Part shown: in pieces, positions 11,948 to 58,420 of the stretch | Layout: every line of letters starts with the position of its first letter | Numbering within the stretch: the stretch's first letter is position 1 | Source: a virus | Taxonomy: Duplodnaviria > Caudoviricetes | DNA: 64,000 nucleotides | Direction: 5' to 3' (one strand) | Virus record (IMG/VR): IMGVR_UViG_3300013830_000002 | Location: 102,779-166,778 of that record | Notes under the pieces: generated by a model | Database searches by the model: none | Seen by the model: only the letters and a program-made list of their open reading frames with translations | What the model was told of the DNA's origin: nothing | Position numbers and translations under genes: made by a program

Positions 11948-14900
11948 TCAATAAGCGGTTTCTGTACTATAAAGTAAGAACGACTTATAAGGATTAGTTA
12001 CTGCAATAGATGCATAGCCCTGTGCAGTAATTGCACCACCTGCTACTAATGTAGCAACATCCCCGTCTTCAATTCCAACCCCTCGTAAGGTATTGAATAT
12101 AAAGTCTTTACCCTTAAGAGTAAATAGGTTAATGGCAGGATTGCCATTAGTTTTACCTGCTGTTAAGTCGATGCACATAGCAAACGGCATTGGATATTCT
12201 CTTGTAAGAGTTCTATCAGCAGTAAAAACTATAGTATTTCCCAAATTTATGTTAATCTAAGTATTTCTACCTAGTTCAGACTATATCTTTATCTTTAAAT
12301 TTAAAAACAAATCCTTTATGTGAGTGAATAATATTTCTGAGAACCCTATTTATCTAAGATACATTTAATTCAGGATGCTGTTTTTTACAGTCCTGAGCAT
12401 TATCATACTCTCCTATTTTGTTTCCCTTTTTGTCATACATAACAATTTGTTTATAAGGAATTTTTAGAGGGCCACCAATATAAGGCTCAATATCAGAATC
12501 ATTACCAGTGTATCTTCTCCACTAATAGCCAGCTGCTAGACAGTGCTTCATAACTGCCTAATTAATAGTGCATACTTGCATAGCTAAATCAGCTTCTTCT
12601 ATACTATTAAAAGTTCTTAAAAATTTTCCACTTAAAGTATACTGTGCTACAGGAGTAATATTTCTATTTTTATATCCTGGAAATTTATTATTTCTAGACC
12701 AGATATAATCACAAGCGGATGATGTTCTTCCTGCACAATTATTTTTTATAGCCTATTTAACACTTTCATAATTGTCGGCATTAATAGAATGAGCAGCTAT
12801 TCCTATTGAAGGATAGGCAGAAACAAACTTTCCTTCTTTTGTATACTGGTAAACTGTGTGCATATATTCAGGATTAACTCCTCCTTGACCTCCTACACTT
12901 GTATTATAGCACTATTTGCTTCTAAGTACTGTAGGAGTCACAAGCTCTGCTTCTAATTGATAGGCCTGTTTCTTTCCTTCTTCTGTGTGAGGAAATATCC
13001 TAAGTGTAGTACGCTTAAATTTATCATATCCATATTTCCTAACAGCAGAATGAAATGCAAACTTTTTATTGGCATTACTTAATCTATATACCCCGCATCC
13101 TATATAACCATCAAACACATCTGGATTTGTTTCATGTACACCTATGTAGAATTTACCATTACATAAGTTTATTGTTATATAAACAATATATTTCAATTCC
13201 ATAAGATAATTACCATTTCGATTATATTAATAATCTATGCCCATAAAGGGACTTACTAGTCGTTGAACTTCACTCATACTTAAAAGCTAAGAGTTTTAGC
13301 TGCTGATTATCCAATCTCTATTATTTTTCAGCATTATATTTAATTTCCATTAATATTTTAGCTAATAGAGCTCTAAGGAACTTCCAGCAATTAAATAATT
13401 TTTATTAAGCCACAGATTTCTCTGCGTTTCGCCAGAAATAAATTAGTTTAGCGAATTCATAAGCACTAAATGTGCTTCCAACTTTATAATATTTACCGTC
13501 TTGTTTTGAGTAAAGATAAGCACCATCAGTCTTGAAGTCTGCAAGGTACTTAAACAGTACTCTGTTAAAGATTGCCCACATTTGTTCATTTGCCACAAAA
13601 ACAAACTGGTTACCAGTAGGAGTATCAGCCTTCTGGACCATTTGAGAAATAACGGTCTGGAAAGTGTTGATAGTAATCTTACTAGCAACATATTTAGAAG
13701 CAAATCTTTCTATCTATGGAATTAAGCCCTCCGAAATTGTTAATCTTCATATTACTACGAAGTTCAGACTATATTTTTAACTTGTATTGTTTTATCCTCT
13801 ACAAGTTACTTCCTCTTTCCACCAATTTAAATAGTGTACTCTACTCAGTTATAATTATTAGTTTTTCTCTAATAATTTCTTTTCGATAGTCGTTGAACCT
13901 TACTAACATTAGTATTGGCTGCTGATTGTCCTATAGTAGCTAAATAGGAGATTCCAGCAATTAAAGAAGTTTTATATTGGCAAGAGTTTATCCAACCAAT
14001 AGGAATAGGTCTACCAGTCTGTCTATCAGAAAGTGTAGGCTTGCCGTCCCTGCCAATGTTACCTTTAGAAAGGAGCAACATTTGCTCACGAGCTTGCATG
14101 AAGTTATCAATAAGATTTTTCTTCATTGGGTCAAGCTTGTAAATGGTTTCTGTCAGACAACCTTGATTTTGACCTTGACCAATTTTAATGAGAGTATCCT
14201 CCATAAGAGCATACTTTGAACTGTATGTGTCATCACATCTGATGAGGGTCATACAGTTACGCATCTTTTCAACATTCATATTATTGCCTTATAGTTTCCT
14301 ATAAGATTAGACTATATCATTAATTTACTTTATATTTAAAAATAAATCCTTTACACTGTTGTTGTACTCCTTTTAATACCTTCTAAACTCCTCTTGTGTA
14401 CTTATGTATAGTACAAGCCAAAGATGGACATTCTTCTATAAAAGTACCATCAGTTTTATAGACTAAAACTGGACGTTTAAAATACTTTAACTTTATAAGG
14501 ATTCATTTTTTCTAATTTAGTTAATGAAAATTGGTATGATTTATAATTTTTATTTTTTCTGATTGACACTGTTATAGGATTAGTGCTGTTAATATTAAAA
14601 AACTTTTTAATTTCTTTTCCATTATATAAAACAGTTAAAAATTTACCTTGTAAATCGTAAACATATAAAGGTTTATTCTTTATATGAATATGTTCAATAG
14701 GCTTATACTCTTCTACCAATTTGGAAGAAAAATAGTAGTTTTTTATTTTATATCCAGTAGACATAGCATTTCCTACACTCTAAGGAGTAACCCCAATACT
14801 AGTAGCTGCTTCCTTAATAGAATTGTATGAAGCTACAAATTTGAGTGTAATTGCATCGTACTAAAAGCATTTTTGCTCTAGGCACGTAAATTCCTTAGTG

Positions 14901-17703
14901 TTAATACTTGTATCTTTAGACCAATAAAAATTTTTGCAGCGATTTTTATAATTAACTGCATTCCTGATAGCAGTATGTGATACACAATAAAAGTCAGCTG
15001 CTTCCTACATAGTATTCCAGGTTTTAATGTACTTACCACCAGTTGTAAATTGGTTTACAGGCAAGTATTTATAACCTGTCATACCACCTAGCTAAGCATT
15101 ATATGTATCCTTCCGTTTAATAAAATTATAATCTACTAATCTTGATTCTTCTTTTAATGCTTCATCTAATGAGTCACATACTTTTAAAGTAATTCTTTTA
15201 AAATTTTTAACCCCATATTTTTTGACTGCATATTGTAAAGGAGATGAAGGATTCATATAACTACTTGGCATATTTACTTTTATTCCACATCCGAGATACT
15301 AATCAAAAACATCTGGATTTTCTGTCTTATGCTATCCAATATAAATTTTTCCATTAACTAAATTTTTTGTCAAATATATTATATATTTCATTATTTAGTA
15401 AATTAGCTTCCATTTCGATTAATCTTTTAATCTACTCTCTCCCGAGATAGTCGTTGAACTTTTCTTGGTACTCCAGTCATAACTTTCAGTATAATCCAAG
15501 ACTTAGCTGCTGATTACCATTTCACAGGTTTCCAGCAATTAAAAAGCTTGTGCTTGTAGCTTAAGCTACAAGGAGCAATGTTAGTTTACTCTGGTACTTA
15601 ACGAACATTTTGTTAATCACTATATTACTATAGTGTTCAGACTATATCTTAATTTATATAAAATAAATTCACTCTTTTTCAGCTATTACAGCTTACTCCG
15701 TAAAGGATAGTCGTTGAACATTCTAAAATAAAAATTTTAGCTTTGCTGCTGATTGTCCTAATTAGTAGCTGACTTAGGATTTCCAGCAATTTAAAGTGTT
15801 TTTATTATTGACTGAGGCAACGTTAAAAGTACCAATAAAATTTTAATATTTTCACCACAGTCATTAAGCTCCGGCTTGGCATTTCCTACCCATCGGGTAA
15901 GACCGCCAATATGGCAAGCATCCACATCAAGAACTGAGCTATAATCATCGTCAACAAGACGGACCATTACAGACCATCTATTGTCAGCTTTTCTTACAGG
16001 CGGGGCCACGACAAAGCATTGCTGGCCGGATTCCTCAATCTTGAAGATTTCATGAAGTTGGTAATAGTTCTCTGGGAATACCATTTCAATTTCAGAACCA
16101 TCTGCACCATTCTCAACAGGAACTTCTGCAAACGGAATTCTCTTGATTTGATTGGTTTCGATTTCCCCAATTTAATTGTTATCAACATGTTACCATGTTG
16201 TTCAGACTATATCATTTACTATACTTAAACACATAACCATTACATTCAGTAATCTAATTGATTACTTTGTTCATTTGTGTATGTGTTAATCCATACTTAA
16301 CCCGGCACTCTTTAAAAGTATTAAATTCTTCAATCAAAGTGCCATTTTTGTCATAAACTTTTAGTGTGACAGGATTCAATTTTCTACTTGGCAATTCAGT
16401 AATTTGTTTTGTACTAATATAGAAATTCTTAAACCAACCGTCATTGTCATGTATGATTTTGTCCAATTTGGCAAACGAGAATACCTTTAGCTGTTTAAAT
16501 ATTTCTTTTCCTACAAATGTTCCGATAAATTTATATGGAATACTGTACAAAAAGAACTGACAGCTTTTTAATTGTACTCTTGGTTTTGGTTTAAATTCGT
16601 CTGTATTAATGTTTGACACATAATGGTTGCATAGTAGTTGTTGGTTTCTGCAGGCATGACTGACTGCTTGTGGAGTACATCCTAAATATTGAGCACACTC
16701 TTTTCTTGTGCCAAATACAGCAACCTGACTACCATCCTTTGTATAAACAAATGTTTTTTGTTTGCGATGGTTAATGTTAAAAATCTGTGGTTGTCTACTC
16801 CAGTAGAATCCAGCGTAAGTAATACCGTCAGTAGAAGCTCTCTGTAACCTTATTAAGTTCAAACCCAGAGAATCAGCTGCCTCAACCGTACTGTTCCACG
16901 TTTTTATTAAATTACCATCGTAGTCAAATTGATTGATTGGTTTGGAATGCCAAGTTCTGTCTTGCTGGCCTTTAAAATATCCACCAAGACCTCCTACAGC
17001 TACATTATATACATGAGCTTGACGAATAAACTATTCAGTCACAATACTCTCTTCAATGGCTGATGCCTCTTCAATAGTATCCACTATTTGAATAGTGTAT
17101 CGAGTGAAAGCATTTGGCCCATACTTTTTAACTGCCTTTTGAAAAGGAGTTGTAGGCTGCATATATGTAGCAGGTTTTTGTGCATAGACTCCACAACCTA
17201 AATACCCGTCAAAAATTTCTGGGTCTTCGGTTTTATGGTAGCCTATATAAATTTTGTTCAGTCCATTCTTTTTGGACTTGTTGTTTACAGTTAAGTATAT
17301 GATATATTTCATAGTAATCCAATTTTTCACCATAAGGTTTAGAACGCATCTTAGTCGTTGAACATTACTCTGAACCAGAGTCGTGCTGCTGATTGTCTTG
17401 TAGTAGCATCAAGAGTTCCCAGCAATTTAAAGGATTTTTCACAGTAGCTTACACTACTGAGGAGCAGGAATTTTACTCATAGAATTCAGAGTCAATTGAA
17501 GTAAAGCTACCAAGCTTTTTCTTCTCCTGACCCATCCAAACATTACCAAGTAAGTCAGTTAATGCACTCAAAGTGTTTTGCGGATAAAGCTTAGCAAGAA
17601 TACCGAGCTTATATGTTTTAGTACCAAGGAACTTACCAAAATCCTCAACGGTACGTGTACCACCCATATTAGGGTTATTAGTTACAAAATTAGCTACTAA
17701 CAT
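11948..17703 (-). CDS. Major capsid protein, 472 aa after splicing; exons 17703-17475, 16167-15854, 15605-15588, 14276-13995, 13731-13450, 12241-11948
   Basis: Exons sum to 1419 nt and join in frame (EFYE-W-EIETNQ; PELNDCG-FVKYQS-NVEKMRN; PIPIG-EGLIPQIERFASKY; AYEFA-GNTIVF); each upstream exon ends in U and each intron in G; one TAG=Gln at 13714-13716. Confidence 0.9.
12242..13449 (-). mobile_element. Group I intron 5 of MCP (with GIY-YIG ORF)
   Basis: Core motifs; P1 TTCGCT/GGCGAA; P10 TATTTCT/GGAAATA. Confidence 0.9.
12276..13202 (-). CDS. Intron-encoded GIY-YIG endonuclease; TAG=Gln
   Basis: YIVYITIN..GKFYIGVH; extends through TAGs to an in-frame TGA inside the intron S element. Confidence 0.8.
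13732..13994 (-). mobile_element. Group I intron 4 of MCP (263 nt, no ORF)
   Basis: Core motifs; P1 ATTGGT/GCCAAT. Confidence 0.9.
14277..15587 (-). mobile_element. Group I intron 3 of MCP (with GIY-YIG ORF)
   Basis: Core motifs; guide AACATTGCTC pairs GAGT of exon 3 and AATGTT of exon 4. Confidence 0.9.
14477..15391 (-). CDS. Intron-encoded GIY-YIG endonuclease; TAG=Gln
   Basis: MKYIIYLTKNLVNGKIYIG(Q)HKTENPDVFD(Q)YLGCG; in frame with ORF 14477..14764. Confidence 0.8.
15606..15853 (-). mobile_element. Group I intron 2 of MCP (248 nt, no ORF)
   Basis: Same four core motifs; U| and G| boundaries. Confidence 0.9.
16168..17474 (-). mobile_element. Group I intron 1 of MCP (with GIY-YIG ORF)
   Basis: Core motifs AATTGCTGGGAA, AATCAGCAG, GTTCAACGACTA, GATATAGTCTGAAC; P1 GAGT/GCTC; terminal G. 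Confidence 0.9.
16212..17312 (-). CDS. Intron-encoded GIY-YIG endonuclease with NUMOD1-like repeats; TAG=Gln
   Basis: MKYIIYLTVN..KIYIGYH..; ORFs 17031..17333 and 16254..16862 join across TAG; ends at TGA 16212. Confidence 0.85.
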
Positions 17704-47310: not shown

Positions 47311-47393
47311 CACTCTGCATAGTCAGTAGTACAGTTACTTCTGAATTGCTAATTTATATAAAATAAACTGTAGTACAACTTACTTGCAGAGTG
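47311..47393 (+). ncRNA. Scaffold ncRNA copy 1 (Y-RNA-like candidate)
   Basis: Outer stem CACTCTGCA/TGCAGAGTG; TAGTCAG..ACAGT-TACTTC..ACTGT. Confidence 0.6.
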
Positions 47394-47410: not shown

Positions 47411-47523
47411 TTGACAATAAACGTGTGTACTCAAATTGTCAGTTACTTCAATAATGTTAGACAAAGTGAAATTCATACGATTAAATAAACTGGCTATTGG
47501 TTTAGTCACATGTTTATTGTCAA
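47411..47523 (+). ncRNA. Scaffold ncRNA copy 2
   Basis: 17-bp outer stem; CAGTTACTTC..AACTG. Confidence 0.55.
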
Positions 47524-47673: not shown

Positions 47674-47745
47674 CTCAGCTTGGAATAACGATAGTTCATG
47701 CACCTTTACAAGTGCAAGGTTATGGTTTGACTCCATAGGCTGAGT
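47674..47745 (+). tRNA. tRNA-like gene with 8-nt anticodon loop CUUUACAA
   Basis: Acceptor CTCAGCT/GGCTGAG; D stem GAAT/GTTC; anticodon stem TGCAC/GTGCA; T stem TATGG/CCATA. Confidence 0.65.
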
Positions 47746-49999: not shown

Positions 50000-50077
50000 G
50001 CCTCCTTAGCTCAGTTGGTTAGAGTACGTGATTTGTAATCTCGGGGGTTGTCAGTTCGAGTCTGATAGGAGGCTCCA
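50000..50077 (+). tRNA. tRNA-Thr(TGT)
   Basis: Cloverleaf with encoded CCA. Confidence 0.85.
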
Positions 50078-50082
50078 TGACA

Positions 50083-50184
50083 ATCAGGAAGTCAGTGTTT
50101 CAGTTACTTCACATTATAATGAAAATAATCCGCAGAAAATGATTCTGCAACCAGCATCAATACTGAACACAATTTTCTTCTGAT
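50083..50184 (+). ncRNA. Scaffold ncRNA copy 3
   Basis: ATCAGGAAG/CTTCTGAT stem; AGTCAG..TCAGT-TACTTC..ACTGA. Confidence 0.6.
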
Positions 50185-50257
50185 TTTACTGACTGTAGTA
50201 GCCTCTCCCAGTTAATCGATGCTGGTGATGCTCTGCAGTATTTTGACAATTTTAACA

Positions 50258-50395
50258 GGAAGAAAGTAGTCAGGCAAGTACAGTTACTTCGATTTTTTAG
50301 CTCATTGGATAGAATGTTAGTTTTGGGTACTAAAGGTAGCAAGTTCAAGTCTTGCAAGAATCAACATTACACTGTCAGCCGTTTTCTCTTTCTTT
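50258..50395 (+). ncRNA. Scaffold ncRNA copy 4 enclosing tRNA-Pro(TGG)-like cloverleaf (50291..50363)
   Basis: Scaffold motifs flank GATTTTT..TTAGT-TTTGGGT-ACTAA..GCAAG-TTCAAGT-CTTGC-AAGAATC. Confidence 0.7.
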
Positions 50396-50401
50396 TTGCT
50401 T

Positions 50402-50485
50402 GGGGATGTAAACCGTAATTGGTAGCGGGCGAAACTGTAAATTTCGTTTCTTCGGAATCTGTAGGTTCAAGTCCTACCAGCCCCA
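50402..50485 (+). tRNA. tRNA-Tyr(GTA)
   Basis: CGAAA-CTGTAAA-TTTCG; long variable arm. Confidence 0.85.
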
Positions 50486-50503
50486 CAAAAAACTTAAATG
50501 TTT

Positions 50504-50586
50504 CCAGTAGTCAGATATATCAGTTACTTCAAAATTTTATACATTGAAAATTATCTGAATCCAATACTGATTATCTTTTTCTCTGG
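50504..50586 (+). ncRNA. Scaffold ncRNA copy 5
   Basis: CCAG-TAGTCAG..ATCAGT-TACTTC..ACTGAT..TTTCT-CTGG. Confidence 0.65.
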
Positions 50587-50596
50587 TTTTTATTTT

Positions 50597-50671
50597 GGGC
50601 CAGTAGCTCAGCAGGCTAGAGCACCTGCCTTGCAAGCAGAAGGTTGTGGGTTCGAGACCCACCTGTGTCCA
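50597..50671 (+). tRNA. tRNA-Ala(TGC)
   Basis: Cloverleaf; loop CTTGCAA. Confidence 0.8.
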
Positions 50672-50727
50672 CTGTGGACAAAGGCGTATTATTTAAGTAT
50701 GTGGTCTGTGAAGATAGCATACTTTTT

Positions 50728-50801
50728 ATTCCCTTAGCTCAGTTGGTTAGAGCATTTGGCTTACATCCAAAAGATTGGCAGTTCAAATCTGTCAGGGAAT
50801 A
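50728..50801 (+). tRNA. tRNA-Val(TAC)
   Basis: TTTGG-CTTACAT-CCAAA. Confidence 0.85.
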
Positions 50802-50821
50802 CATACTTTTATTGAAAATAT

Positions 50822-50892
50822 GGTAGGCAGAGTGTGATGGTAGCATGTCATCCTGTCACGATGAAGGAGGGGTTCGATTCCCATGCTTACTG
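50822..50892 (+). tRNA. tRNA-Asp(GTC)
   Basis: TCATC-CTGTCAC-GATGA. Confidence 0.75.
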
Positions 50893-50902
50893 CAAAATAA
50901 AT

Positions 50903-50976
50903 CGTGGGTTAGACTGGAGGTGGTTCCAGCATGGTTTCATAAGCCATTGACACAGGTTCGACTCCTGTACCCGCAA
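50903..50976 (+). tRNA. tRNA-Met(CAT), C1:A72 initiator-like
   Basis: ATGGT-TTCATAA-GCCAT. Confidence 0.8.
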
Positions 50977-50982
50977 CAAATA

Positions 50983-51123
50983 AAATATTTGAGTAGTCAG
51001 ACTTATCAGTTACTTCGTAGCTTAAAGGTTAAGCAATTAACTTATAATTAATGTATTGTTGGTTCGATTCCAACCGACCACTCTTGTGGATTTTACTGAT
51101 TGTCAATTTCTCTCAAATATTTT
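50983..51123 (+). ncRNA. Scaffold ncRNA copy 6 enclosing tRNA-like D/anticodon(TAT)/T arms
   Basis: Outer stem AATATTTGAG/CTCAAATATT; cargo GCTT/AAGC, ATTAA-CTTATAA-TTAAT, GTTGG-TTCGATT-CCAAC; acceptor stem truncated. Confidence 0.7.
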
Positions 51124-51124
51124 T

Positions 51125-51195
51125 GGGTTCGTAGCTGGAAGGTCAAGCAATAGACTGTTAATCTATGGATGTAGGTTCGATTCCTACCGTTCCCG
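51125..51195 (+). tRNA. tRNA-Asn(GTT)
   Basis: ATAGA-CTGTTAA-TCTAT. Confidence 0.8.
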
Positions 51196-51250
51196 CTTAA
51201 TTCCCATCAGTCCCTGAAGTAATTCAAACTGGTGGGTATTGTATTAAAAT

Positions 51251-51388
51251 AATAAAGTGTAGTCAAGAAAACAGTTACTTCGATTCTGTTGTACAATAGG
51301 TTAGTACGATTTACTATGGGTAAATAAGTTACTGGTTCGAACCCAGTCAAAATCTTTTGATACTGTTTGCTAACTTTCTCACTTTATT
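51251..51388 (+). ncRNA. Scaffold ncRNA copy 7 enclosing tRNA-like cloverleaf with ATG anticodon (51282..51355)
   Basis: Outer stem AATAAAGTG/CACTTTATT; cargo ATTTA-CTATGGG-TAAAT, ACTGG-TTCGAAC-CCAGT. Confidence 0.7.
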
Positions 51389-51487: not shown

Positions 51488-52201
51488 ATGAATGAGTTAA
51501 AAAATTATTACTAGAATTTAGTTAATACTTCTTAGTCTTTTTCTGAAATTTTAAGAAAACAGCATAAAGCAGTTTCAGGAGCATCTATCAAGCTATTAAA
51601 AATCACTTTAGATTCTTTAAATATTAACTATAGTCATATAAAATATAGACAGCCTGTAAGAAATAGGCGCCCATTATCCTAGATTTTAGTTGAAAATAGT
51701 GTATATAGTTCCAGAGACCTTAAAACACGCCTAATAGAGGCAGGTTTAAAAGTAAATAGATGTGAAATATGTGGCCAATCTCCAATATGAAATAATAAAA
51801 AGTTAACTTTACAACTTGACCATATTAATGGGAATCATTTTGATAATAGACTTCATAATTTAAGGATTGTTTGTCCGAATTGTCACAGCTAGTTAGAAAC
51901 TTAGGGAACTCATAGATTTAAAGTAATTAAAAGATGTCCAGATTGTGGAAAAATTATTACTAGTAAATCCACGTACTGCAGACAGTGTGCAGCTACACAT
52001 AGAAGAGGCAAAAAGTGGAGAAGCATTGTATCAAAATAGGAACTTCTTTAGTTAGTACTTACTTTGCCCTTTACAAAGATAGCTAAAAAATTCAATATTA
52101 CTGATAATGCAGTAAGAAAATATTGTAGAAAATTAGGAATTCCTTCTACTAAAACTGAATTATTCAAATATCGAAATAAGATGCAGTAGATAGCCACTTA
52201 A
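51488..52201 (+). pseudogene. Free-standing HNH endonuclease; TAG=Gln; in-frame TGA at 51788
   Basis: CEICG..*NNKKLTLQLDHINGNHFDNRLHNLRIVCPNCHS(Q); C-terminal Zn finger and HTH. Confidence 0.75.
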
Positions 52202-53870: not shown

Positions 53871-55496
53871 ATGAAAATGAAAGAAAGAAATCAGCAGCTA
53901 AAGGCTGCTATCGGAAGAATTCCTGACAAGAAAGTCACAAAGGAAGTAATGCACATGCCTAAGTATGATGCAAAGAACCTGCAAGGCTTTGATGCCTATG
54001 CAGTGCCTGAAAAGTTACATCTGCTTGCAATGCTCAACACACTTAAGCTTGAGCCTCAGTTCTATCGTTCTGTGAGTGAAACAATGAAGGAGATCAAGGC
54101 ACTGATTGACAAGATTGCCGAGAAGGATGCTTACTTTGTTGCACAGGCAATTGTCTGGTCAAGATGCTGTGGTGAGGGTATGCGTTCAATTAACTATCTT
54201 GCTGCTGCTTTTCTTGCACCTTGGTGTGCTGGTGAAGAGTGGGCAAAAAGATTCTATGGCCCGTTCAACAAGAAGACAAAGAATTCTGGTGGTGTCATTT
54301 ACAGACTTGATGATATGTCAGAAATCAAGGATGTTTTTGATGCTCTTAACAACTCTGTATTGACAAATGCAATGAAAAAAGGCTTCAGGAATGTCATTGA
54401 ACATGCTTCAGCCTATGAGCTTTGCAAGTACAGAAAGACTGCAATTGACATCACTAATCTGGTTCATCCAAACACTGCTGTTTGTGCAAAACTCAAGGAT
54501 GGCACGAATGTAATCGATACCCTGATGAAGGGCAAGATTATTTCTGCTGATACTTGGGAGAATGCAAACTCTGATGCTGGTCAGGTAGTTGCTGATGCTG
54601 TCAAGAAAGGAAAACTTTCCGAGGAGAAAGCAAAGGAAGTTCTGAAGGAAGCAAAGAATGACAACTGGAAGTCCTTACTTAAGGAAGGAAAGCTTGGAAT
54701 TCTTGCTGCTGTGAGAAACTTGAGAAACATTCTCTTAGGTGATGACACTGAAACAGTTAAACTTGTTTCAAACCTTGTTAGTGACGGAAAGAGAATCAAG
54801 CAAGGAAAGATTATGCCATATCAACTTGAGTTTGCTCATACTGCTGTCACAGAGCTGACAGAAGTATCACAGAGCCTTAAAGCTCCTGTGATGAAAGCAC
54901 TCGAAAAAGGTATGATTGAAGCCCTTCCTAATCTTGCTGAACAGTTGCCAGGAAGAAACCTTGTTGCATTTGATATTTCTGGCTCAATGAGCTGGGGTGA
55001 ATGTTACCAAGGAAAGAGCAGAATTTCTGCCAATCCTATTGACAAGGCAGCTATCCTTGCAGCTATGCTTGCAAAAGGTACAAATGCTGATATTATCAGA
55101 TTCAATAGTAGGTCTGAATTCTTCTCATACAGTGCCAATGAAGACTTGTTCAGCCTTGCAACAAGACTGAAGCAGAATATTGGTGGTGGAACATCCATTT
55201 CTTCTGTGTTTGATTTGATTACAAGTAAGCATAAGAAGTATGACAGAATCTTCATTATTTCAGACGATGAAGCTAATCAGGGCTGTACAAGATATGCTTA
55301 CAGTAATTACATACAAAATGTTTACTCTCCTTATATTTATGCAGTTGACCTTGCTGCCTATGGCACAATGCCTGTAAGAAATGATGGAAAAGTGAACTAC
55401 TATTTCGGATATGGATATTCAATGCTTGATGATGTTGCAAGCAAGGAATTCAATCCGAATGCTGTAATAGATAAGGTGAAGGCTATCAAGATTTAA
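53871..55496 (+). CDS. rsr: Ro60/TROVE-domain RNA-binding protein with C-terminal vWA domain (541 aa)
   Basis: N..G..AY, GMRSI, LCKYR, VHP, TWE, LAAVRNLRNIL, MPYQ, MIDAS DISGSMS, GGGT, IISD, DLAAYG pattern. Confidence 0.88.
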   Translation: MKMKERNQQLKAAIGRIPDKKVTKEVMHMPKYDAKNLQGFDAYAVPEKLHLLAMLNTLKLEPQFYRSVSETMKEIKALIDKIAEKDAYFVAQAIVWSRCCGEGMRSINYLAAAFLAPWCAGEEWAKRFYGPFNKKTKNSGGVIYRLDDMSEIKDVFDALNNSVLTNAMKKGFRNVIEHASAYELCKYRKTAIDITNLVHPNTAVCAKLKDGTNVIDTLMKGKIISADTWENANSDAGQVVADAVKKGKLSEEKAKEVLKEAKNDNWKSLLKEGKLGILAAVRNLRNILLGDDTETVKLVSNLVSDGKRIKQGKIMPYQLEFAHTAVTELTEVSQSLKAPVMKALEKGMIEALPNLAEQLPGRNLVAFDISGSMSWGECYQGKSRISANPIDKAAILAAMLAKGTNADIIRFNSRSEFFSYSANEDLFSLATRLKQNIGGGTSISSVFDLITSKHKKYDRIFIISDDEANQGCTRYAYSNYIQNVYSPYIYAVDLAAYGTMPVRNDGKVNYYFGYGYSMLDDVASKEFNPNAVIDKVKAIKI

Positions 55497-55561: not shown

Positions 55562-55636
55562 TGGGGCGTAGCAGAATGGTACATGCTGGAGTCTCTAAAA
55601 CTCTGTAATATGTGGGTTCGAGTCCCATGGCCCCAT
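55562..55636 (+). tRNA. Amber suppressor tRNA (CTA), probably Gln
   Basis: GGAGT-CTCTAAA-ACTCT; U1:A72 acceptor as in tRNA-Gln. Confidence 0.88.
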
Positions 55637-55650
55637 CTAACTTAAATTTA

Positions 55651-57145: not shown

Positions 57146-57274
57146 GGGGCAGAAGTTTAACGGAAATTATACTCTGATGAGAGTCCTTTGTATTATGCAA
57201 TAGTCATCATATAGAGTTACTTCAAACATTTATCTATCACATAAAAGAAAGTTGGTTAGACTCTAGCCTGCCCC
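57146..57274 (+). ncRNA. Scaffold ncRNA copy 8 (divergent)
   Basis: GGGGCAG/CTGCCCC; TAGTCA..TAGAGT-TACTTC..ACTCTA. Confidence 0.5.
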
Positions 57275-58126: not shown

Positions 58127-58218
58127 GCTCCTATAGCTCAGCTGGTTAAGTACTAGTGATAGTCAAGAGCAACGGATTTTTAATCCGTGTGTCCTGGGTT
58201 CGAGTCCCAGTGGGGGCA
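58127..58218 (+). tRNA. tRNA-Lys(TTT) with expanded D loop
   Basis: ACGGA-TTTTTAA-TCCGT; ~18 extra nt between GCTC and GAGC. Confidence 0.75.
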
Positions 58219-58322: not shown

Positions 58323-58397
58323 GTGTAGGTAGCTTAGTTGGTCTAAAGCATCGGGTTGTGGTTCCGATTATCATGGGTTCGAATCCCATCCTACACC
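58323..58397 (+). tRNA. tRNA-His(GTG)
   Basis: TCGGG-TTGTGGT-TCCGA; C73. Confidence 0.85.
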
Positions 58398-58420
58398 CTA
58401 ATTAAATTTAAATAAAAAGT

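What the first reader, a model, noticed from the sequence alone, without database searches (positions are those of the whole stretch)
50258..51388. Three scaffolds wrap whole or near-whole tRNA cloverleaves with odd anticodons
Seen: directly after UACUUC, copy 4 holds a Pro(UGG)-like cloverleaf, copy 6 holds D, anticodon (UAU) and T arms with a truncated acceptor, and copy 7 holds a cloverleaf with anticodon AUG. UAU and AUG anticodons are rare in bacteria, both tRNA ends are locked inside the scaffold helix, and an ordinary His(GUG) tRNA exists elsewhere in the array. Inference: these are non-translating tRNA mimics, such as decoys for host anticodon nucleases or baits presented on Ro60, or protected tRNA precursors released on demand.
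Basis: partly seen in the sequence, partly recalled or inferred. Interest (0 to 1): 0.82.

Follow-up and report, generated by a model that had tools for sequence, protein, structure and literature searches.

The report
Phage Y RNAs carrying whole tRNA shapes
Three small RNA genes in this phage put a tRNA-shaped module on a conserved "handle" that travels with the RNA-binding ring protein Ro60 in many phages and bacteria, so they are most likely Ro60 partner RNAs (Y RNAs) that imitate tRNA, not working tRNAs.

Summary
ARAGORN and Rfam find a Pro(UGG) cloverleaf (50291-50363), an acceptor-less D/anticodon(UAU)/T module (51015-51077) and a cloverleaf with anticodon AUG (51282-51355). Each starts right after an invariant UACUUC and sits inside a two-helix scaffold.

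The scaffold is one of nine copies around an intact Ro60 (TROVE+vWA) gene at 53871-55496. The same scaffold occurs about 214 times on the Ro60 strand, against 8 on the other strand, in 1.58 Mb around Ro60 genes. These come from about 70 phage contigs and from bacterial chromosomes, including Prevotella. The outer helix covaries fully.

So these are Y RNAs of a subfamily that Rfam's YrlA model does not reach. tRNA-like Y RNAs are already known (YrlA, Yrn1). What is new is the native-order module with a full anticodon arm, and the complete cloverleaves.

Evidence against ordinary decoding:
- Copy 4 has G1:C72, while all free-standing tRNA-Pro inspected have C1:G72, A1:U72 or U1:A72.
- Copy 7 has U73 and no G-1, while 15/15 free-standing tRNA-His(GUG) have C73.
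- Homologous cargo bodies in other phages carry many different anticodons.
- The 21 best matches to that body all lie in scaffolds.

Release as real tRNA is not excluded. The nuclease-decoy idea is untested. This scan has found the same handle-plus-Ro60 pairing in other genomes before.

The parts
50259..50395 (+). Copy 4, whole element: P1 50259-50266 / 50388-50395; 5' loop UAGUCAG 50267-50273; P2 about 50273-50284 / 50371-50380 (the predicted fold pairs G50273, the last base of the loop motif, into P2); 3' loop GUUUUCU 50381-50387
   Evidence: Duplex analysis -21.0 kcal/mol; the minimum-energy fold keeps P1 and P2; model R1 27 bits, E 0.008
50285..50290 (+). Invariant UACUUC linker of copy 4
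   Evidence: invariant in alignments A2 and A3
50291..50363 (+). Copy 4 cargo: complete cloverleaf, anticodon UGG (50324-50326), G37, G1:C72, A73, no encoded CCA
   Evidence: ARAGORN; Rfam tRNA 52.0 bits; acceptor end compared with free-standing tRNA-Pro
50985..51120 (+). Copy 6, whole element: P1 50985-50993 / 51112-51120; UAGUCAG 50994-51000; P2 51001-51010 / 51095-51104; UACUUC 51011-51016; 3' loop AAUUUCU 51105-51111
   Evidence: Duplex -19.9 kcal/mol; fold z-score -3.1; ortholog in L035 3187-3328
51017..51089 (+). Copy 6 cargo: D arm, anticodon arm (loop CUUAUAA, UAU at 51043-51045), T arm 51058-51074, then small hairpin CCAC-UCUU-GUGG 51078-51089. No acceptor stem of its own; UCG of UACUUC-G can pair with CGA 51075-51077
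   Evidence: Rfam tRNA 50.3 bits, model 5-66 only; same build as the Prevotella chromosomal L040 11677-11811
51253..51386 (+). Copy 7, whole element: P1 51253-51259 / 51380-51386; UAGUCAA 51260-51266; P2 51267-51275 / 51362-51370; UACUUC 51276-51281; 3' loop UAACUUUCU 51371-51379
   Evidence: Duplex -14.8 kcal/mol; the fold keeps P1 and P2; ortholog L035 3454-3593
51282..51355 (+). Copy 7 cargo: complete cloverleaf, anticodon AUG (51316-51318), G36 G37, U73, base -1 = C, one C:A mismatch in the acceptor stem
   Evidence: ARAGORN and Rfam 50.2 bits; 74/74 identical in L035/L036; acceptor end compared with free tRNA-His
53871..55496 (+). Ro60/Rsr ortholog, 541 aa, intact reading frame
   Evidence: Pfam TROVE 31.3 bits and vWA_Ro60 28 bits, both above cut-off; profile matches solved Ro60 structures 9KOP/9L5Y, 1YVP, 2NVO, 9NEN
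47313..47391 (+). Copy 1, short non-tRNA cargo
   Evidence: R1 61.2 bits (in the seed alignment)
47421..47513 (+). Copy 2, non-tRNA cargo
   Evidence: R1 31 bits, E 0.0013
50082..50185 (+). Copy 3, non-tRNA cargo
   Evidence: R1 37.2 bits, E 8e-5
50501..50589 (+). Copy 5, non-tRNA cargo (lies between copies 4 and 6)
   Evidence: R1 30.2 bits, E 0.0018
57146..57270 (+). Copy 8, with an extended 5' part (AUAGUCA...GAGU UACUUC; outer helix GGGGCAG/CUGCCCC). The least certain copy.
   Evidence: Read by eye; the motif scan finds it; R1 only 11 bits
57279..57366 (+). Copy 9, non-tRNA cargo; the top of P2 covaries (GACU:AGUC instead of CAGU:ACUG)
   Evidence: R1 43.7 bits, E 4e-6
58323..58398 (+). 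Ordinary free-standing tRNA-His(GUG) with C73, for comparison
63079..63963 (+). Second tRNA-Pro(UGG), interrupted by a long insert; starts with C1 and has A73, for comparison with copy 4

Best explanation
Copies 4, 6 and 7 are phage-encoded Y RNAs, the noncoding partners of the phage's own Ro60 protein. Each has a handle: outer helix P1, an asymmetric internal loop (5' UAGUCA(G/A), 3' U-rich ending in CU), inner helix P2, and an invariant UACUUC. The handle is inferred to be the Ro60-binding module. It has the same layout as published bacterial and phage Y RNAs: a 5'/3' stem, an internal loop with a conserved 5'-strand motif, a second stem, then YUAY. On top of the handle sits an exchangeable module. 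In these three copies the module is tRNA-shaped, in native 5'-to-3' order and with a full anticodon arm. I infer that this module is displayed on Ro60 as a tRNA mimic that engages tRNA-binding host or phage factors, such as modification or processing enzymes or an exonuclease. I infer that it is not used on the ribosome. On this reading the odd anticodons follow from the triplet not being under decoding selection. Copy 6 is the ancestral form, without an acceptor stem of its own, and is shared with host chromosomes. Copies 4 and 7 have 7-bp acceptor stems, so RNase P probably nicks them after UACUUC, as happens to M. smegmatis YrlA, with the pieces held together by P1 and P2. Shown here: the scaffold, its covariation, its linkage to Ro60, the tRNA shape, and the missing identity marks. 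Inferred: Ro60 binding, lack of aminoacylation, and the RNase P nick.
For: 1. Ro60 itself: Pfam TROVE and vWA_Ro60 both above cut-off; profile matches to solved Ro60 structures at E 4e-14 to 7e-9.
2. Linkage: nine scaffolds lie within 6.6 kb of the gene on the same strand. One pipeline finds 214 scaffolds on the Ro60 strand and 8 on the other strand in 1.58 Mb around Ro60 relatives. With the strict core pattern the counts are 55 and 12.
3. Hosts: in Prevotella chromosomes the scaffolds directly flank rsr. One of them carries D, anticodon and T arms without an acceptor, like copy 6 (L040 9848-9955 and 11677-11811; L121). The scaffold also sits beside rsr in genome-bin contigs labelled Bacteroides, Saprospiraceae/Lewinella and Ruminococcus.
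4. Structure: P1 is 95.9% paired, and all 7 pairs show changes on both sides; 0 of 500 shuffles reach the covariation score. In the anchored analysis of 163 distinct scaffolds, P1 positions 0-4 are paired in 92-96% against 38-74% for shuffled partners, and the top of P2 in 81-96%.
5. Layout matches published Y RNAs: GNCGAA-type 5' motif, then YUAY before the tRNA-like domain (Chen 2014); 'stem, bulge with CGAA, stem' (phiLo paper). Eight scaffolds read UAGCGA, and all carry (U/C)UAC.
6. Same-scaffold relatives carry permuted T-acceptor-D modules, and Rfam YrlA touches one of them weakly (27.2 bits).
7. Not ordinary decoders: copy 4 has G1:C72, whereas all 16 free-standing tRNA-Pro(UGG) listed have C1:G72, A1:U72 or U1:A72. 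Copy 7 has U73 and C at -1, whereas all 15 free tRNA-His(GUG) have C73. Copy 6 has no acceptor stem.
8. Homologous cargo bodies carry UGG, AGG, UAG, CAG, GUG, UUG, UCA, GCU, AUU and 8-nt loops. The copy 6 ortholog in a 90%-identity relative reads CAU instead of UAU.
9. The 21 best nhmmer matches to the complete-cargo body all lie behind UACUUC.
10. Precedent: YrlA with a 7-bp acceptor is cut by RNase P and receives CCA while it stays on Rsr.
Against: Rfam YrlA does not match the three elements, and the canonical GNCGAA motif is absent from the window's copies. Copies 4 and 7 keep everything a processing enzyme needs: a 7-bp acceptor, the conserved U8, A14, G18G19, G53-U54-U55-C56, A58 and C61, U33, a purine at 37, and single-stranded linkers on both sides. 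Copy 7's tRNA is 74/74 identical in a relative whose surrounding region is 95% identical, and acceptor stems of the complete class covary. That is selection on the full tRNA shape, which would also fit a working tRNA. U34 is enriched (62%) and A34 is not clearly so (4/39 against 27/820), so the loops are not simply drifting. The rules used for Pro and His identity are E. coli-type rules recalled from memory, and the host's synthetases were not examined.
Confidence: 0.6

Rival explanations
1. Handle-tagged tRNA precursors. Copies 4 and 7 (less likely 6) are real tRNA genes whose leader and trailer pair into a Ro60-binding handle. Ro60 holds or quality-checks the precursor. RNase P and a 3' endonuclease then release a normal tRNA, which receives CCA from the host enzyme and is charged. 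The leftover two-piece handle may itself remain a Y-RNA-like duplex.
For: Complete cloverleaves score 50-52 bits, within the range of the phage's free-standing tRNAs (34-73 bits). Both have 7-bp acceptor stems and 6-7-nt single-stranded linkers on each side. Most neighbouring tRNAs also lack an encoded CCA. Copy 7's tRNA is perfectly conserved in L035/L036. L038 carries a strong tRNA-Thr(CGU) (71 bits) and a tRNA-Lys(UUU) in scaffolds. UGG is the commonest anticodon in the complete class (7 of 21). The UAU-to-CAU difference in copy 6 orthologs keeps an AUA-reading type of anticodon if C34 is modified. [quoted passage not shown]
Against: The acceptor-end identity marks of Pro and His are missing, while every free-standing counterpart inspected keeps them. 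The same body carries anticodons for Leu and Ser without a long variable arm, plus 8-nt loops. Copy 6 and its host homologs have no acceptor stem at all, yet share the scaffold. The phage already has tRNA-His(GUG) and a second tRNA-Pro(UGG). The phage encodes no CCA-adding enzyme.
Confidence: 0.22
2. Anticodon-specific decoys. The tRNA-shaped modules soak up host anticodon nucleases or other anticodon-reading defence enzymes, and each triplet is chosen to match one threat.
For: The anticodon triplet is among the most variable positions of an otherwise conserved module, while U33 and the purine at 37 are kept. There are several paralogs per phage. They sit inside phage tRNA arrays, which are thought to offset tRNA-targeting defences.
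Against: The host chromosome carries the same kind of module next to its own rsr, so the module predates any phage use. Triplet entropy is no higher than that of other unconstrained loop positions. Typical nuclease targets (UUU, UUC, UUG) are not enriched. A decoy would not need Ro60. Nothing here tests nuclease binding.
Confidence: 0.1
3. Recombination by-products. Scaffolds and neighbouring tRNA genes share D and T arm sequence and recombine within the fluid array, leaving chimeras with no function of their own.
For: The array is mosaic: the closest relative has a tmRNA and other DNA where the window has 50003-50936, the stretch that includes copy 4. L038's scaffold-borne Thr and Lys are not homologous to the common cargo body.
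Against: The complete-cargo body is conserved, always scaffolded, across phages whose Ro60 is only about 50% identical to the window's. Its acceptor stem covaries. Copy 7 is 100% conserved. No free-standing donor tRNA was found.
Confidence: 0.06

Closest known systems
YrlA Y RNAs of bacteria and mycobacteriophages (Rfam RF02553; Chen et al. 2014, PMC4201824)
   Same: Encoded next to Ro60/Rsr. The 5' and 3' ends pair into a stem with a conserved 5'-strand motif in an internal loop, followed by a second stem and YUAY. They carry a module with tRNA D and T arms. There are several Y RNAs per locus. M. smegmatis YrlA, which has a 7-bp acceptor, is cut by RNase P and gets CCA while bound to Rsr.
   Different: In YrlA the tRNA-like domain is circularly permuted (V-T-acceptor-D), has a closed acceptor hairpin and has no anticodon arm. 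Here the order is native, with a full anticodon stem-loop, and in copies 4 and 7 an open 7-bp acceptor. The handle reads UAGUCA...UACUUC instead of GNCGAA. The Rfam model gives no match on these copies and 27 bits (gathering score 69) on a permuted relative. The phage has nine copies spread through a tRNA array.
Deinococcus radiodurans Yrn1 (with Rsr and PNPase)
   Same: Native order, with a stem-loop in the place of the anticodon arm between D-like and T-like elements. The Ro60-binding stem is formed by the RNA ends (Chen 2014).
   Different: Yrn1 has only partial D features, a 6-nt 'anticodon' loop and no variable arm, and no dihydrouridine was detected. The modules here pass the Rfam tRNA threshold at 50-52 bits and keep the conserved nucleotides that form tRNA tertiary contacts.
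Thermus phage phiLo Ro60 with Yrl1/Yrl2 (PMC12135203)
   Same: A phage-encoded Ro60 with phage-encoded Y-like RNAs upstream of the gene. They have a stem-bulge-stem build, and binding to Ro60 and to host PNPase was shown in vitro.
   Different: Yrl1/2 were picked by a CGAA motif. The passages I read describe no tRNA-shaped module for them. The phiLo protein is only distantly related (E 4e-14 to the profile).
tmRNA and viral tRNA-like structures (tymovirus TLS, mascRNA)
   Same: Non-tRNA transcripts that present a tRNA shape to tRNA enzymes (RNase P, CCA-adding enzyme, synthetases).
   Different: Those use the acceptor/T half and are charged or cleaved as part of their function, and none is tied to Ro60. 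Weak Rfam touches here (Tymo_tRNA-like, mascRNA) are ordinary tRNA cross-hits.

Membership tests
Y RNA (Ro60 partner RNA, YrlA-like) | Encoded beside a Ro60/Rsr gene, on the same strand | tested here: met
   Ro60 at 53871-55496. The nine scaffolds lie 1.7-6.6 kb away. Across relatives, 214 scaffolds are on the Ro60 strand and 8 on the other. They directly flank rsr in Prevotella chromosomes.
Y RNA (Ro60 partner RNA, YrlA-like) | 5' and 3' ends pair into a stem / internal loop / stem platform supported by covariation | tested here: met
   P1 95.9% paired, with 7 of 7 pairs showing changes on both sides. The anchored P1 and P2 statistics exceed shuffled partners. Caveat: the scaffolds were selected by duplex energy.
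Y RNA (Ro60 partner RNA, YrlA-like) | Conserved 5'-strand Ro60-binding motif GNCGAA(N)G (vertebrate GGUCCGA) | tested here: not met
   The window copies read (G/A)UAGUCA(G/A) or UACUCAA. Across the family the counts are UAGUAA 61, UAGCAA 39, UAGUCA 27, UAGUGA 10, and UAGCGA only 8 of 165. The position is the same but the letters differ.
Y RNA (Ro60 partner RNA, YrlA-like) | Reaches the Rfam RF02553 gathering score (69 bits) | tested here: not met
   No match on the scaffolds. The only window hit is a spurious 26.4 bits across two free tRNAs. A permuted relative in L042 scores 27.2 bits.
Y RNA (Ro60 partner RNA, YrlA-like) | tRNA-like domain with D and T arms | tested here: met
   Rfam tRNA 52.0, 50.3 and 50.2 bits. 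U8, A14, G18G19, G53-U54-U55-C56, A58 and C61 are present in all three, read.
Y RNA (Ro60 partner RNA, YrlA-like) | Physically bound by Ro60 | not testable with these tools
   Needs pull-down or gel-shift experiments.
YrlA in the strict sense | Permuted order V-T-acceptor hairpin-D, no anticodon arm | tested here: not met
   Copies 4, 6 and 7 run D, anticodon arm, T in native order. Permuted forms do exist on the same scaffold in relatives, for example L042 9831-9972.
Functional elongator tRNA (Rfam RF00005) | Cloverleaf above the Rfam gathering score with a 7-bp acceptor stem | tested here: met
   Met for copies 4 and 7 (model positions 1-71). Not met for copy 6 (model positions 5-66 only).
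Functional elongator tRNA (Rfam RF00005) | Acceptor-end identity marks of the amino acid named by the anticodon | tested here: not met
   Copy 4 has G1:C72, against C1:G72, A1:U72 or U1:A72 in 16 of 16 free-standing tRNA-Pro(UGG). Copy 7 has U73 and C at -1, against C73 in 15 of 15 free tRNA-His(GUG). The rules themselves are recalled from E. coli work.
Functional elongator tRNA (Rfam RF00005) | Anticodon kept among orthologs | tested here: not met
   The same body carries at least 10 different triplets and 8-nt loops. The copy 6 ortholog reads CAU instead of UAU. The copy 7 ortholog keeps AUG.
Functional elongator tRNA (Rfam RF00005) | Processed to free ends, CCA-tailed and aminoacylated | not testable with these tools

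The most novel reading that the evidence does not exclude
The handle is a universal Ro60 adaptor and the anticodon arm is a programmable address. Each Y RNA's triplet, kept in a proper U33...R37 loop (and in the complete class next to a conserved G36-G37, the TrmD determinant), directs the phage Ro60 particle to one tRNA-reading enzyme, or to one complementary tRNA anticodon. Under this reading a phage with nine such RNAs would run a small library of tRNA-specific Ro60 particles that inspect, protect or destroy particular tRNAs during infection.
Probability: 0.12. Interest if true: 0.85.

Novelty: new variant of a known kind. Interest (0 to 1): 0.6.

Why it matters
What the tRNA-like domain of bacterial Y RNAs does has been open since 2014. 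This family offers a natural series on one handle: no module, a permuted module, a native module without acceptor, and a full cloverleaf. There are about 165 distinct examples from phages and from bacterial genome contigs labelled Bacteroidota and Firmicutes, with up to nine per phage, inside tRNA arrays.

That makes the question testable by comparison and by swapping modules. It links Ro60 to tRNA biology during phage infection of gut and rumen bacteria. It also warns annotators: tRNA finders call these elements tRNA-Pro, tRNA-His and even suppressor tRNAs, which can distort inferences about phage tRNA sets and alternative genetic codes. Finally, Rfam's YrlA model misses the whole subfamily, so a new model is warranted.

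Tried and rejected
- Exact-pattern scan of viral contigs for TAGTCAG-N3-9-CAGTTACTTC: 27 loci, all chance matches inside coding DNA.
- The search for related loci with the single Ro60 protein found nothing. It worked only with alignment A1.
- My first Python scanner was far too permissive, with equal hits on both strands. I replaced it with a motif plus duplex-energy scanner.
- blastn of the region against deposited phages returned only generic tRNA matches.
- Rfam at E up to 5 over 47-62 kb gave no family other than tRNA for the scaffolds.
- Covariance model R1, built from short-cargo scaffolds, finds copies 1, 2, 3, 5 and 9, and copy 4 weakly. It cannot span the 77-80-nt inserts of copies 6 and 7.
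- MAFFT misregisters the 3' strand of P2, so P2 looks only 56.5% paired in A3. The anchored count is the better measure.
- The idea that A34 anticodons occur at random frequency in cargos is not supported: 4/39 against 27/820, with U34 at 62%.
- The idea that the phage pairs Tyr(GUA) with Tyr(AUA) is dropped. ARAGORN's 'Tyr(ata)' at 58127 is a tRNA-Lys(UUU) with a D-loop insert.
- The phage encodes no RtcB and no CCA-adding enzyme, and only a weak ligase-family match.
- Another scan note likens the handle to amoebal Class I RNAs. I did not test this; one search showed no such Rfam match in this window.
Full report
**What is there.** The window is the last 64 kb of a 166.8-kb virus record that CheckV rates as complete. 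It is AT-rich (about 35% G+C). It carries a + strand tRNA array from 47.5 to 61.5 kb with 28 ARAGORN calls, including a CUA suppressor.

Inside the finding's coordinates the three cargos are exactly as described:
- Copy 4: tRNA-Pro(UGG) at 50291-50363, Rfam tRNA 52.0 bits.
- Copy 6: a tRNA match at 51015-51077, 50.3 bits, covering only model positions 5-66. It has D, anticodon (UAU) and T arms but no acceptor stem.
- Copy 7: a cloverleaf with anticodon AUG at 51282-51355, 50.2 bits.

Each follows the hexamer UACUUC directly. All three keep the conserved nucleotides that form tRNA tertiary contacts (U8, A14, G18G19, G53-U54-U55-C56, A58, C61), read. An ordinary tRNA-His(GUG) lies at 58323-58398. 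A second, interrupted tRNA-Pro(UGG) lies at 63079-63963.

**The scaffold.** CAGTTACTTC occurs seven times exactly, all on the + strand and all in the array. None of 100 shuffles reached the observed 16 matches at up to one mismatch, and there are no further exact copies in the genome.

The build, from 5' to 3', is:
- outer helix P1
- 5' loop (G/A)UAGUCA(G/A)
- inner helix P2
- UACUUC
- cargo
- 3' strand of P2
- U-rich loop ending in CU
- 3' strand of P1, usually followed by a run of U

In copies 4 and 7 the tRNA is joined to P2 by the 6-nt UACUUC and a 6-7-nt 3' linker. The ends are therefore tethered but not buried.

**It travels with Ro60.** The 541-aa frame at 53871-55496 has TROVE and Ro60-vWA domains above Pfam cut-offs. 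Its family profile matches the solved Ro60 structures of phage phiLo, Xenopus, Deinococcus and human. More than 2,000 relatives exist, many on contigs of 130-320 kb.

I fetched 133 further loci around these relatives: L035-L040 by exact protein look-up, and 80 viral and 47 genome contigs.
- A strict motif search gives 55 hits on the Ro60 strand and 12 on the other.
- The full motif plus duplex-energy pipeline gives 214 against 8 in 1.58 Mb.
- About 165 scaffolds are distinct.
- In a Prevotella chromosome one scaffold ends about 45 nt before the rsr start and another begins about 36 nt after its stop.
- The scaffold also sits just upstream of rsr in genome-bin contigs labelled Bacteroides, Saprospiraceae/Lewinella, Chitinophagales, Ruminococcus and Anaeroplasmataceae.

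**Structure is supported.** In a 25-sequence alignment, P1 is 95.9% paired and every pair shows compensatory changes; 0 of 500 shuffles reach the covariation score. In an anchored count over 163 distinct scaffolds, P1 positions 0-4 pair in 92-96% against 38-74% for shuffled partners. The top five pairs of P2 pair in 81-96%. The caveat is that the scaffolds were picked by duplex energy, so pairing is partly built in. The strand bias and the Ro60 linkage are independent of that choice.

**Relation to known Y RNAs.** Chen et al. 2014 describe YrlA as a 5'/3' stem with a 5' GNCGAA(N)G motif, then a conserved YUAY that opens a tRNA-like domain arranged V-T-acceptor-D, which is permuted relative to tRNA. 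They describe Yrn1 as having the native order with an anticodon-like arm. The phiLo paper describes a stem, a bulge with CGAA, and a stem.

The scaffold here has the same layout. The loop motif sits in the same place but reads UAGYNA; eight of 165 read UAGCGA. The (U/C)UAC of UACUUC corresponds to YUAY. On the same scaffold, relatives carry four kinds of cargo:
- no T arm: 65
- a T arm in another order, including clear T-acceptor-D modules: 59
- native D-anticodon-T without its own acceptor: 24
- complete cloverleaves: 23

Rfam's YrlA model does not reach its threshold on any of them. It scores 27.2 bits on a permuted one and gives no match on the window's copies. I therefore treat the family as a distant YrlA-like subfamily and the three elements as a new variant of it.

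**Are the cargos working tRNAs?** Several lines argue against it.
- Copy 6 and its host homologs have no acceptor stem. Only 3-5 bp form between CUUC+N of the invariant hexamer and the bases just after the T stem, followed by a small hairpin.
- Copy 4 has G1:C72. All 16 free-standing tRNA-Pro(UGG) listed from these loci have C1:G72, A1:U72 or U1:A72 with A73, and the window's own second tRNA-Pro starts with C1.
- Copy 7 has U73 and C at -1. All 15 free-standing tRNA-His(GUG) have C73 and many have G at -1.
- The complete-cargo body is conserved across phages whose Ro60 is about 50% identical to the window's. Yet it carries UGG, AGG, UAG, CAG, GUG, UUG, UCA, GCU, AUU and 8-nt loops. Anticodons for Leu and Ser occur without a long variable arm.
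- The copy 6 ortholog in a relative with 90% identical Ro60 reads CAU instead of UAU.
- The 21 best nhmmer matches to the complete-cargo body are all preceded by UACUUC. No free-standing copy of any window cargo was found.

**What keeps the rival alive.**
- Copies 4 and 7 have 7-bp acceptor stems. [quoted passage not shown]
- Copy 7's tRNA is 74/74 identical in L035/L036, where the surrounding 464 nt are 95% identical.
- The acceptor stems of the complete class covary.
- U33 and a purine at 37 are kept, and U34 is enriched.
- Thirteen of 19 complete cargos keep G36-G37 while positions 34-35 vary. G36-G37 is the TrmD determinant, which I recall from memory. Its meaning here is unknown.

No expression or end data could be obtained. 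The phage has no RtcB and no CCA-adding enzyme.

**Verdict.**
- Most likely (about 0.6): Ro60 partner RNAs whose tRNA-shaped module is a mimic displayed on the particle, with copies 4 and 7 probably nicked by RNase P.
- About 0.22: handle-tagged precursors that release real tRNAs.
- About 0.1: anticodon-specific decoys.
- About 0.06: functionless chimeras.

The papers I could search describe permuted YrlA, the partial Yrn1 module and phiLo Yrl1/2. None describes a native-order module with a full anticodon arm, or complete cloverleaves, on a Y-RNA handle. Earlier notes of this scan report the same handle-plus-Ro60 pairing in other phage genomes.

Noticed in passing
window 58127-58218: ARAGORN calls this Tyr(ata), but it is a tRNA-Lys(UUU) with a long D-loop insert. 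The insert reads ...UAGUGAUAGUCAA..., which is two copies of the scaffold's 5' loop motif inside a free-standing tRNA. It could be a Ro60 contact grafted onto a real tRNA.
   Followed up: partly
L035 2468-2819 (relative with 90% identical Ro60), against window 50003-50936: The close relative carries a phage tmRNA (Rfam 80.7 bits) and other DNA where the window has Thr, copy 3, copy 4, Tyr, copy 5, Ala, Val, Asp and Met. The array is mosaic, and copy 4 is absent at that place in the relative's 9.6-kb contig. A weak HDV-like ribozyme match (30.4 bits, below threshold) follows at L035 2817-2900.
   Followed up: partly
L040 9848-9955 and 11677-11811; L121 2337-2457, 4166-4310, 4318-4444: Prevotella chromosomal rsr genes are flanked by two or three scaffold RNAs, one of them an acceptor-less tRNA-like module (anticodon AGA or CGU). 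In L040 the locus abuts two integrase genes, so it may sit at the edge of an integrated element.
   Followed up: partly
window 57146-57270 (copy 8): This copy has about 50 extra nt between the outer helix and the AUAGUCA motif, including ACUCUGAUGAGAGUCC. That contains the hammerhead-like CUGAUGAG box. No ribozyme family matched.
   Followed up: no
window 13745-15837 (- strand): Three group I introns (Rfam 58-71 bits) lie within 2.1 kb.
   Followed up: no
window 51700-52180: An HNH-endonuclease-like frame is broken by in-frame TAG and TGA codons, just after the scaffold cluster. The phage carries a CUA suppressor tRNA at 55562-55637, so TAG may be read through.
   Followed up: no
window 47674-47745: A tRNA with an 8-nt anticodon loop (ARAGORN anticodon 'ttac'). 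8-nt loops also occur in two scaffold-borne cargos of relatives (L041 7570-7644, L048 5835-5908).
   Followed up: no
L042 9719-9791, L045 4036-4107, L056 7191-7263, L052 1630-1705 and others: ARAGORN names several scaffold-borne modules as suppressor or SeC tRNAs (anticodons UUA, UCA). Automatic annotation of these phages could mistake Y-RNA modules for stop-codon suppressors.
   Followed up: partly
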